NCBI GenBank assembly: GCA_964016885.1
Contig: OZ024741.1
Location: forward strand, 164,052,001 to 164,116,000
Direction of reading: 5' to 3'
From: Eledone cirrhosa
Taxonomy: Eukaryota
DNA: 64,000 bases
Below, piece after piece: positions 8,260 to 10,945 of this stretch (positions are counted from its first letter, which is position 1; every line of letters starts with the position of its first letter). The notes beneath the pieces are model-generated. The model saw only the letters and a program-made list of their open reading frames with translations, had not been told where the DNA came from and searched no databases. The translations under genes and the position numbers were made by a program.

Positions 8260-9930
8260 ATACATATATATATATATATATATATATATATATATAACAG
8301 AAATAGCCGTCGAAACGGCTTGAGCTCTGCCGTCGGGGTCTTACTTTTTCCTATATATATATATATATATATATAAATATACATATATATATATATATAT
8401 ACATATACATATATATATATATATACACATATATATATAGATATACATATATATATATATATATACATATATATATATATATACATATATATATATATAT
8501 ATACATATATATATATATATATATATACATATATATATATATATACATATATATATATATATATATATATATATATATATATATATATATATATAGATAT
8601 ACATATATATATATATATATATACATATATATATATATACATATATATATATATATATACATATATATATATATATATACATATACATATATATATATAC
8701 ATATATATATATACATATATATATATACATATATATATATATATATATATATACATATATATATATATATATATATATATATATATATACATATATATAT
8801 ATACATATATATATATATATATATATATATATATATATATATATATATATATATATATATATATATATACATATATATATAAAGGTTTACATATATATAT
8901 ATATACATACATATACGTGTTTTGCAACGGGTCACTTTGTGGCTCAATGAAAAATTAATAAATTAAATAATCAGAGCTATATATCATAAAACATGTCTAT
9001 AGAATCACCAGATAAAATATATACCATTTTTTCTCCCAATTAGCATAATTAACTATATAAAAAATCGAATATATATATATATGTAAACCTTTATATATAT
9101 ATTTATATATATATATATATATATATATATATATATATATATATATATATATATATATATATATATATATATATATATGTATATATATATATATATATAT
9201 GTATATATATATATATATGTATATATATATATATATGTATATATATATATATATATGTATATATATATATATATATATATGTATGTATATATATATATAT
9301 ATATATATATATATGTATGTATATATATATATATATATATATATATATATGTATGTATATATATATATATATATATATATATATGTATGTATATATATAT
9401 ATATATATATATATATATATGTATGTATGTATATATATATATATATATATATATATATATATGTATGTATATATATATATATATATATATATATATATAT
9501 ATATATATATATATATATATATATATATATATATATAAAGGTTTACATATATATATATATTCGATTTTTTATATAGTTAATTATGCTAATTACATATATA
9601 TATATATATATGTAAACCTTTATATATATATATATATATATATATATATATATATATATATATATATATATATATATATATATATATATATATATGTATA
9701 TATATATATGTATGTATATATATATATATATATATATATATATATATATATATATATATATATATATATATATAAAGGTTTACATATATATATTCGATTT
9801 TTTATATAGTTAATTATTCTAATTACATATATATATATATATATATATATATATATATATATATATATATATATATATATATATATATATATATATATAT
9901 ATTTATTTATATATAAAGGTTTACATATAT
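8260..9930. repeat. Large (TA)n / (TA)nCA microsatellite arrays with embedded element termini
   Basis: Direct inspection; the YI-repeat ORFs are artefacts. Confidence 0.95.
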
Positions 9931-10945
9931 ATATATATAAAGGTTTACATATATACATATATACATACATATACGTGTTTTGCAACGGGTCACTTTGTGG
10001 CTCAATGAAAAGTTAATAAATTAAATAATCAGAGCTATATATCATAAAACATGTCTATAGAATCACCAAATAAAATATATACCATTTCCTCTCCCAATTA
10101 GCATAATTAACTATATAAAAAAGCGAATAGACCAGGCTATAAGAATAAGGCTTCTATGAAGAAATCTCCAACAAATAACCGAAACTAGCCCTTCGCGTCG
10201 GCCGCGACGGAATATTTATCGAATATTTCGACAGCGTAATCGCCCAGATACAGTCAATTAAACAGAATTAGGTGTAAAATAAACTAGGAGAAAATAGAAT
10301 ACATTTATTTACCTCTACCATGGTTTCGTCCGCATTTTGAGATTTCCAATAACTTTGGAACACGAGCATCGGACTCATCAGGAGTTTTCTCCGATCCAGA
10401 CATTAAATTTTCCAAAGTGATCGCGCCAAGAATTCATTCAAAAATGGCTAACAATCGTGACGTAGCAGCGGTCAGGTTGGAAGGAGTGTGGTAGTTGCTT
10501 ACGGCTGGTGGCTTTTTGCTAGAAAGCACAGCACAATACAGCCAAATTTGTATCTCAACCTAATGGGATATTATTACATATAAAGGTTTACATATATATA
10601 TATATATACATATACATACATATACGTGTTTTGCAACGGGTCACTTTGTGGCTCAATGAAAAGTTAATAAATTAAATAATCAGAGCTATATATCATAAAA
10701 CATGTCTATAGAATCACCAGATAAAATATATACCATTTCCTCTCCCAATTAGCATAATTAACTATATGAAAAATCGAATAGACCAGGCTATAAGAATAAG
10801 TTTCGGTTATTTGTTGGAGATTTCTTCATAGAAGCCTTATTCTTATAGCCTGGTCTATTCGATTTTTTATATAGTTAATTATGCTAATTGGGAGAGGAAA
10901 TGGTATATATTTTATCTGGTGATTCTATAGACATGTTTTATGATA
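8880..10945 (-). mobile_element. Non-coding HHR-bearing element with tandem (651-nt period) and inverted terminal copies
   Basis: cgtgttttgcaacgggtcac block at 8916, 9974 and 10625; inverted copy 10801-10945; HHR at 10312-10385. Confidence 0.75.
10312..10385 (-). ncRNA. Type I hammerhead ribozyme
   Basis: Minus strand: CTC-CTGATGA-GTCCG..(hairpin)..CGGAC-GAAA-CCATGG-TA-GAG; palindromic stem III, GUA site. Confidence 0.85.

What the first reader, a model, noticed from the sequence alone, without database searches (positions are those of the whole stretch)
8880..10945. 651-nt tandem HHR unit woven into a 2.7-kb TA array with mirror-image termini
Seen: the terminal block recurs at 8916, 9974 and 10625 (last two 651 nt apart) and inverted at 10801-10945. 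One canonical-core HHR lies in the unit. Short terminal tags (gtaaaccttt / aaaggtttac, and tcgattttttatatagttaatt) are scattered in both orientations through 9050-9950, separated by TA runs. Inference: repeated priming and template switching on a self-complementary (TA)n target, possibly rolling around a circular 651-nt RNA, is generating both the element copies and new microsatellite.
Basis: partly seen in the sequence, partly recalled or inferred. Interest (0 to 1): 0.75.

Follow-up and report, generated by a model that had tools for sequence, protein, structure and literature searches.

The report
Two-armed Penelope-type retrozyme in TA repeats
This is one of over a thousand copies of a small non-coding repeat carrying a hammerhead (predicted self-cutting) RNA motif, sitting in TA microsatellites with two unequal fixed ends like those of a Penelope retrotransposon of the same genome, so a Penelope enzyme likely copied its RNA onto both sides of a DNA cut, while the jumble of short tags beside it likely came mostly from later local DNA copying.

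Summary
The sequence observation holds, with corrections: 1.3 units rather than an array, hammerhead on the minus strand, and only 54% of the 2.7 kb is simple repeat. The unit is a dispersed family (1,248 exact TA-to-end junctions). In 77 census loci, 88 of 102 outer ends at the fixed starts abut TA (background 1.7%), and 32 loci are head-to-head inversions. Arms start at two fixed sites, and the two arms use opposite sites: 27 of 27 classifiable pairs, plus 14 of 14 in a second sample. An autonomous Penelope-like element here follows the same rule (12 of 12). Reading: a non-LTR retrozyme, likely mobilised by a Penelope enzyme that primes both cut strands. Copying runs through the ribozyme site (20 of 21 arms), so the template is a circle or an uncut multimer. 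The scattered tags include an exact inverted copy of a locus-unique junction that was then duplicated: likely DNA-level copying. No net TA growth was seen. No autonomous parent, RNA or long-read proof was found. The scan noted the same two-armed signature earlier in other families of this genome. New member of a known kind.

The parts
8352..8881 (.). (TA)n target array, CA-interrupted (29 CA, 0 TG)
8881..9071 (-). Short element arm: tag, TA, unit positions 1-156. Carries A at u39 where the two main copies carry G; both alleles occur in the family
9070..9092 (+). Tag-only arm in the opposite orientation, joined head-to-head to the short arm
9092..9537 (.). (TA)n array, TG-interrupted (18 TG, 0 CA)
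9538..9606 (.). Block B1: exact 54-nt reverse complement of the junction at 9038-9091, followed by a second junction unique to this locus
9607..9774 (.). Second reverse tag and shorter TG-interrupted array (duplicate of 9078-9537)
9775..9840 (.). Block B2: direct duplicate of B1, with one substitution and a TA run 4 nt shorter
9915..9973 (-). Doubled tag and TA tract: outer start site A of the main insertion
9974..10624 (-). One full 651-nt non-coding unit (601 unique nt + TACATATA + tag + 36-nt TA/CA tract); the element RNA is the minus strand; longest open frame 68 codons
10313..10384 (-). Type I hammerhead motif: helix I 3 bp here (10384-10382 with 10315-10313), core CUGAUGA 10381-10375, helix II 5 bp with long loop, GAAA 10327-10324, helix III 2 bp with palindromic CAUG loop, predicted cut after 10316
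10625..10800 (-). Partial second unit, positions 1-176 (5'-truncated end of arm A)
10799..10949 (+). Inverted arm B, unit positions 63-213, starting at the internal TATATA site; joined to arm A through about 2 nt of microhomology
10944..10959 (.). Right-hand (TA)n target remnant

Best explanation
A non-coding, hammerhead-bearing repeat sits in a TA array as two head-to-head arms that start at two different fixed sites; it was likely inserted by a Penelope-like reverse transcriptase/endonuclease that cut both strands of the TA target and likely primed each cut end on the element RNA, and the scattered tags to its left are likely later local DNA copies. Shown: family anatomy, TA targeting, two start sites (A at the tag or u1, B at u63), opposite-site rule, the same rule in an autonomous Penelope-like family, read-through of the ribozyme site, and exact local duplication of junctions. 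Inferred: the enzyme works as a dimer with one subunit per start site; both start sites are TATATA-like and pair with the TA primer; the template is a circle or an uncut multimer; the two cDNAs are joined by microhomology; breaks or slippage in the self-complementary TA then caused fold-back copying (9038-9091 into 9538-9591) and a direct duplication (B1 into B2). Some of the tags may be abortive reverse-transcription starts.
For: Dispersed family: 465 and 1,248 exact pattern matches, controls 0. Census of 77 loci (all 83 pattern loci on contig C1, less 6 segmental duplicates): arm starts at u63 65, tag 29, u1 8, elsewhere 16; 88 of the 102 at fixed sites follow at least 10 nt of TA-type repeat against 351 of 20,935 background positions; head-to-head inversion in 32 of 77, tail-to-tail in 0. 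Of 33 arm pairs, 27 are A+B, 0 A+A, 0 B+B, 6 have an unclassified arm; p about 1.5e-8 against 50%. Second sample of 38 loci chosen by the u63 junction: 14 A+B, 0 B+B, 1 unclassified (counted by eye). Arms are often not nested (L089, L101, L117, L125, L162), so each was copied from the template. Autonomous RT + GIY-YIG elements with 844-938-codon frames exist; one family (12,884 pattern matches) has two starts 62 nt apart and 12 opposite-site pairs, 0 same-site, 4 unclassified among 16 two-armed loci of 22 examined. Partner arms differ by about 3% and rank within the closest 5% of all copies in 24 of 31 pairs, like tandem neighbours (38 of 47). 20 of 21 arms that reach the ribozyme cut site run through it. 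The junction j|TTACA occurs twice in the genome, both in this window. Long tag arrays elsewhere repeat locus-private variants or target-side bases (L178, L180, L181, L190). In vitro, a Penelope protein cuts and extends both strands and starts at two RNA sites (PMC11167929).
Against: No autonomous element homologous to the unit was found among 32 GIY-YIG loci compared (of 10,596 candidates), so the mobilising family is unidentified. Most A starts include the tag, about 44 nt further out than the 62-nt spacing shared with the autonomous family. The in vitro study found initiation at sites not homologous to the target; here both sites are TA-like. The short left piece (tag arm facing tag arm, 8881-9092) breaks the opposite-site rule unless it is secondary, and its u39 allele suggests a separate template. 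Similarity of partner arms is also expected if one subfamily was active at a time; L113 arms differ by 9%. Ribozyme activity is untested: the single-strand fold does not form the hammerhead (z -0.5), and the helix II closing pair is broken in 12 of 33 copies. Islands such as TCATAAAA between TA runs (L257, L018) and tag-only inserts with a target duplication (L182) point to abortive reverse transcription rather than DNA slippage.
Confidence: 0.7

Rival explanations
1. One reading: the reverse transcriptase repeatedly primes, slips back and switches strand on the TA target during insertion, telomerase-style, around a circular RNA, and so makes all tags and new microsatellite.
For: 62 tag-TA-tag matches genome-wide, nearly all at outer A ends and in element orientation. 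Seven head-to-head tag pairs. L172 and L165 are small versions of this locus. Repeated u63 starts in L251 and L257. Tag-only inserts (L150, L182, L183). A go-back joint at the tag is seen in 127 raw reads of another sample.
Against: Tag islands are repeated in 3 of 30 cases against 3 of 98 for other 4-14-nt islands (p 0.14) and 25 of 162 for 1-3-nt islands. Long tag arrays share private mutations and target-side bases. The 34-nt piece after the tags here is antisense to the cDNA, so it needs a DNA template. Flanking TA runs are not longer than length-biased targeting predicts.
Confidence: 0.17
2. The inversion is made by self-priming or fold-back of a single cDNA (the explanation proposed for Penelope palindromes in PMC3846280), not by priming from both target ends.
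For: Some junctions are near-perfect palindromes with both arms ending at one position (L019, L156, L158, L252). Partner arms are closely related.
Against: Fold-back predicts nested arms and frequent B+B pairs. Found: 0 B+B of 27 and 0 of 14, and several non-nested pairs. The one apparent B+B case picked (L261) duplicates host flank too.
Confidence: 0.05
3. The tag jumble (9038-9840) is an assembly artefact, for example two alleles of one TA array joined in tandem.
For: No read or contig bridging a locus-private junction was listed. B1 and B2 differ as alleles might (one substitution, array length).
Against: Similar compound structures occur at other loci (L144, L148, L165, L172). TA-to-u63 junctions appear in raw reads of other samples (66 and 56 reads). 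The inverted 54-nt copy is not explained by allele joining.
Confidence: 0.08
4. The unit is the solo pseudo-LTR of an unseen autonomous Penelope-like element, made tandem by local DNA recombination after insertion (model discussed in bioRxiv 10.64898/2026.07.22.740005).
For: Xenopus retrozymes match Penelope pLTRs (that preprint). Only a small part of the genome's GIY-YIG loci was compared.
Against: In the 77 census loci nothing but the next unit, an inverted arm, TA or flank follows position 601; the junction is fixed (TACATATA + tag in 40 of 62, mostly one-base variants otherwise). Copies 72-77% identical keep the same circular order (L147, L168). No coding remnant.
Confidence: 0.08

Closest known systems
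Metazoan non-LTR retrozymes (Cervera and de la Pena 2020, PMC7229834: passages and section 14 read; Li, Clavereau and Pollet 2026, bioRxiv 10.64898/2026.07.22.740005: parts 1-3 of 5 read)
   Same: Non-coding tandem monomer with one type I hammerhead, low GC, no LTR, dispersed in many copies, genome rich in Penelope-like elements. Size lies within the 51-972 bp of the preprint.
   Different: Larger than the 170-400-nt circles shown experimentally. Mostly under 2 units, at most 3. Strict TA targeting, two fixed start sites and two-armed inserts are not described in the parts read. No homology to a pLTR found, unlike 24 of 57 Xenopus families. Circular RNA and cleavage untested.
Endonuclease-bearing Penelope-like elements (Craig et al. 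2021, PMC8557442: passages read; Arkhipova et al. 2013, PMC3846280: passages read)
   Same: Partial tandem, inverted 5'-truncated copy, optional tail at one end only, microsatellite (TA)n bias, hammerhead in the repeat.
   Different: No ORF. The tail is 62 nt, or about 106 nt with the tag, against 30-40 bp. The papers say the tail is often at one end; here it is a strict rule per insertion.
Poseidon element of Anolis in vitro (Frangieh et al. 2024, PMC11167929: main text read, parts 1-2 of 4)
   Same: Both target strands cut and extended; two internal RNA start sites whose spacing is the tail; predicted dimer; ribozyme cleavage not needed for insertion.
   Different: There the start sites are not homologous to the target and both strands use both sites in bulk; pairing per event was not reported. 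Here the starts are TATATA-like and the template is non-autonomous.
Palindromic-helix-III type I hammerheads of Penelope elements (Cervera and de la Pena 2014, PMC4209133: passages read)
   Same: Short helix I, short helix III with palindromic loop, predicted to work as a dimer.
   Different: Long structured loop II; no bulged base before helix II; activity untested.

Membership tests
Metazoan non-LTR retrozyme | Type I hammerhead core in each monomer | tested here: met
   Core and helices I-III present; 85.9% of cells paired in 33 copies against 31-50% when slid. Helix III is invariant partly by selection of the rows. Rfam gave no hit.
Metazoan non-LTR retrozyme | Head-to-tail monomers with at least two complete ribozymes | tested here: met
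   Met for the family (L116 three units; L064, L123, L138, L164, L238, L259). Not met at this locus, which has one ribozyme.
Metazoan non-LTR retrozyme | Non-coding, no LTR | tested here: met
   Longest frame 68 codons; no significant match to the Penelope protein.
Metazoan non-LTR retrozyme | Expressed as circular RNA | not testable with these tools
   No RNA holder listed. Indirect only: read-through of the cut site; circular fold z -2.5 on 25 shuffles.
Metazoan non-LTR retrozyme | Self-cleavage | not testable with these tools
   Needs in vitro transcription; the monomer fold does not form the hammerhead.
Penelope-like element (autonomous) | ORF with RT and GIY-YIG endonuclease | tested here: not met
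   None in the unit or after position 601 in 77 loci.
Penelope-mobilised non-autonomous element | Partial tandem, 5' truncation, inverted 5' copy, optional tail | tested here: met
Penelope-mobilised non-autonomous element | Autonomous partner with the same target and end signature in the genome | tested here: met
   L139/L140 family ends in TA, two starts 62 nt apart, opposite-site pairs 12 of 12 classifiable.
Penelope-mobilised non-autonomous element | Sequence homology to a partner's pLTR | tested here: inconclusive
   None among 32 loci; 10,596 GIY-YIG candidates exist.
Penelope-mobilised non-autonomous element | Target-site duplication | tested here: inconclusive
   Cannot be read in (TA)n; one tag-only insert has a flank duplication (L182).

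The most novel reading that the evidence does not exclude
A Penelope dimer loads on one circular retrozyme RNA at two fixed sites, set by the same 62-nt ruler as the autonomous family L139, gives one site to each cut strand, and cycles through abortive, telomerase-like repeat addition of the tag-TA template before it commits to elongation. The tag jumble would then be a fossil of repeat-addition synthesis by the sister group of telomerase at interstitial TA tracts, and this 651-nt RNA a ready substrate to test it.
Probability: 0.22. Interest if true: 0.78.

Novelty: new member of a known kind. Interest (0 to 1): 0.45.

Why it matters
How Penelope-like elements make their tandem and inverted inserts, and whether their enzymes move retrozymes, are open questions in the papers read. 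This family gives a countable rule: the two arms of one insertion start at opposite fixed sites, as in an autonomous element of the same genome. That rule argues against the published self-priming explanation and predicts the result of a simple in vitro assay. The locus itself adds less: its extra complexity looks largely like secondary rearrangement of a fragile TA array. The scan has already noted the same signature in other families of this genome, so this is an added case.

Tried and rejected
Rfam scan of the window: 0 hits. Fold of the ribozyme region: not the hammerhead, z -0.5. Search for an autonomous parent by BLAST of the unit against 32 GIY-YIG loci: only a neighbouring copy of the unit and weak AT-rich hits; a 71-nt, 72% match inside a Penelope ORF was rejected because tblastn gave nothing under E 6. 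Long multimers: a three-unit bait found none covering it apart from itself; next best 1,467 nt (39 of 4,983 candidates scored). Pile-up of truncations at the ribozyme cut: none in the census; 2 arms end within 1 nt of it in the second sample (L233, L249), too few to call. CA/TG polarity as a sign of reverse-transcribed microsatellite: rejected, because background arrays lean the same way (left C 282/G 207, right C 168/G 247). First structure count was out of register by my error and was replaced; the alignment used 33 of 44 representative regions, leaving out 11 that I judged truncated or chimeric. No RNA holder listed. Reads and short contigs showed the family in organism A and part of it in organism B but bridged no locus-private junction; the junction at 9560-9620 remains unchecked against reads. 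Paper searches listed nothing that states a per-insertion opposite-site rule; only seven papers were opened and no supplements were seen, and the supplements of the preprint and of PMC11167929 may bear on this. A look-up of earlier findings by sequence returned nothing for this family.

Full report
Observation. The three direct copies (8916, 9974, 10625), the inverted copy (10799-10949) and the tags are in the sequence. I number the unit from u1 = 9974. It has 601 unique bases, then TACATATA, the tag AAGGTT and a 36-nt TA/CA tract, 651 nt in all. The locus holds one full unit plus u1-176, then an inverted u63-213. Of the 2,701 nt from 8259 to 10959, 1,448 are simple repeat. The hammerhead is on the minus strand: CUGAUGA at 10381-10375, a 5-bp helix II, GAAA at 10327-10324, a 2-bp helix III closed by a palindromic loop, and a predicted cut after 10316. 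Rfam does not detect it and the isolated region does not fold into it. Across 33 copies (of 44 representatives) the proposed helices are paired in 85.9% of cells, against 31-50% when slid; the covariation score exceeds all 500 shuffles, a control that ignores relatedness. A short palindromic helix III is the form described for Penelope and metazoan hammerheads that may work as dimers (PMC4209133, passages).

Family. The unit is dispersed: 465 exact matches to a 22-nt ribozyme pattern and 1,248 to the TA|u63 junction, with 0 for reversed controls. I fetched all 83 pattern loci on contig C1 and dropped 6 segmental duplicates. In the 77 left, arms start at u63 (65), at the tag (29), at u1 without tag (8) or elsewhere (16); 53 more pieces are tandem continuations. 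88 of the 102 fixed-site starts follow at least 10 nt of TA-type repeat, against 1.7% of background positions. The fixed ends are the 3' ends of the ribozyme-sense strand and the other ends are truncated at scattered positions, as expected for target-primed reverse transcription (inference). 32 of 77 loci are head-to-head and none tail-to-tail. This is the anatomy described for Penelope-like elements: partial tandem, inverted 5' copy, tail at one end, (TA)n bias (PMC8557442, passages; PMC3846280, passages).

The opposite-site rule. Call the tag/u1 start A and the u63 start B. Of 33 arm pairs in the census, 27 are A+B, none A+A or B+B, and 6 have an unclassified arm (p 1.5e-8 against 50%). Among top DNA hits outside the census, 8 pairs give 6 A+B, 1 unclassified and 1 scored B+B whose arm carries the tag just outside (L023). 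Tag-selected loci give 19 A+B and 4 unclassified of 23. A second sample, 38 new loci from the first 48 u63 junctions on C1, gives 14 A+B, 0 B+B and 1 unclassified, counted by eye. One apparent B+B picked from the list (L261) also duplicates its host flank, so it is a later palindrome. The window's main insertion obeys the rule. Several pairs are not nested (L089, L101, L117, L125, L162), so one arm is not a fold-back copy of the other. Partner arms differ by about 3% and are among the closest 5% of copies in 24 of 31 pairs, like tandem neighbours (38 of 47); one pair differs by 9%. This fits one template, or one active subfamily at a time.

The likely enzyme. The genome has 10,596 GIY-YIG candidates. 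Two fetched loci have long frames (938 and 844 codons), the first confirmed as RT followed by GIY-YIG; its CX4CxxC linker fits the Neptune/Nematis description in PMC8557442, but I built no tree. That family has 12,884 pattern matches, ends in TA, and has two starts 62 nt apart. Of 22 loci examined, 16 are two-armed: 12 opposite-site, 4 unclassified, 0 same-site. u1 and u63 are also 62 nt apart, though most A starts lie about 44 nt further out at the tag. No sequence homology links the unit to any of 32 Penelope loci compared. In vitro, the Anolis Penelope protein cuts and extends both strands, starts at two RNA sites and is predicted to be a dimer (PMC11167929). Retrozymes are proposed to be Penelope-mobilised (PMC7229834; bioRxiv 10.64898/2026.07.22.740005).

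Circle or not. The unit-to-unit junction is fixed, 20 of 21 B arms that reach the ribozyme cut run through it, and 10 of 38 continue into the next unit. A linear RNA cut by the ribozyme cannot give this; a ligated circle or an uncut multimer can. Multimers are short: three units at most (L116), and a three-unit bait found nothing else as long among 39 scored candidates. Among the first 100 ribozyme matches there are 10 opposite-strand pairs and 1 same-strand pair within about 700 nt. The period runs from about 632 to 690 nt. The lack of long master arrays leans towards a circle, but no RNA evidence was obtained.

The scattered tags. 9538-9591 is the exact reverse complement of 9038-9091, a chimeric junction between u156 and a reverse tag. 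The junction that follows occurs twice in 3 Gb, both here. So a junction formed, was copied in reverse through the self-complementary TA, and the block was then duplicated directly, with one substitution and different array lengths. The 34-nt piece is antisense to the cDNA and needs a DNA template. TA repeats are known break sites repaired by microhomology-mediated joining with small duplications (PMC13645644, abstract only); templated fold-back by polymerase theta is recalled, not from a call. Tag doublets are common (62 matches) and lie at outer A ends, but long ones repeat private mutations or target-side bases (L178, L180, L181, L190), and tags are not clearly repeated more often than other islands in TA (3 of 30 against 3 of 98, p 0.14). 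Against this reading: tag-only inserts (L150, L182, L183), 8-nt islands of the B start between TA runs (L257, L018) and small versions of this locus (L165, L172) suggest that abortive reverse-transcription starts do occur. The short left piece, with tag arm facing tag arm, is not explained by the rule. No census locus has a jumble this large (at most 4 tags, against 8 here).

New microsatellite. Runs beside outer ends have medians of 28 (B), 34 (tag) and 38 nt (u1) and means of 43-59, against a background median of 24, mean 41 and length-biased mean 99, half of which is about 50. Each A arm adds its own TA tract, but no net growth beyond that is seen. CA/TG polarity also exists in background arrays.

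Assembly. TA|u63 junctions are present in raw reads of other samples (66 and 56 reads), so the family anatomy is real. No read or contig bridging a junction private to this locus was listed; misassembly of the B1/B2 duplication is not excluded.

Verdict. A new family of metazoan non-LTR retrozyme, likely Penelope-mobilised, at a locus further scrambled in a TA array shared with other elements. I reached the opposite-site rule before reading earlier scan notes, which report the same two-armed, two-site signature for 311-nt and 484-nt families of this genome; they are unchecked and not independent support. Interest 0.45.

Noticed in passing
window 5583-8258: Two-armed remnant of a Penelope-like element (RT/endonuclease homology 6698-5583 on minus; endonuclease end and 3' region 6728-8258 on plus) whose 3' end opens the TA array; matches GIY-YIG loci L041 and L057.
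   Followed up: partly
window 8297-8351: 55-nt fragment of another abundant TA-associated repeat, found in 35 of 258 fetched loci.
   Followed up: partly
window 10963-11250: End of a further TA-flanked repeat family, found in 11 of 258 fetched loci.
   Followed up: partly
window 41726-43962, 57644-58147, 24986-25631: Further Penelope-like RT/endonuclease remnants, 35-56% identical to the L139 protein.
   Followed up: no
window 59465, 59560, 34493, 38557: Other CTGATGA...GAAA hammerhead-like cores; the pair near 59500 is inverted.
   Followed up: no
window 23180-24057: 36.6 copies of a 24-nt repeat at 98% identity; the length is a multiple of three, so possibly a coding repeat.
   Followed up: no
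L181 and L190: Minisatellites made of 14 or more element tags spaced by variable TA, directly ahead of a two-armed insertion.
   Followed up: partly
L139:3806-6622: 938-codon RT + GIY-YIG frame between two near-identical terminal repeats, ending in 74 nt of TA; the ribozyme-like motif has TTGAAAAG where CTGANGA is expected.
   Followed up: partly
L093-L097: Five copies of one insertion with the same flanks within 330 kb (segmental duplicates); the element's inner TA/TG tract varies from about 60 to 145 nt among them, showing post-insertion repeat instability.
   Followed up: partly
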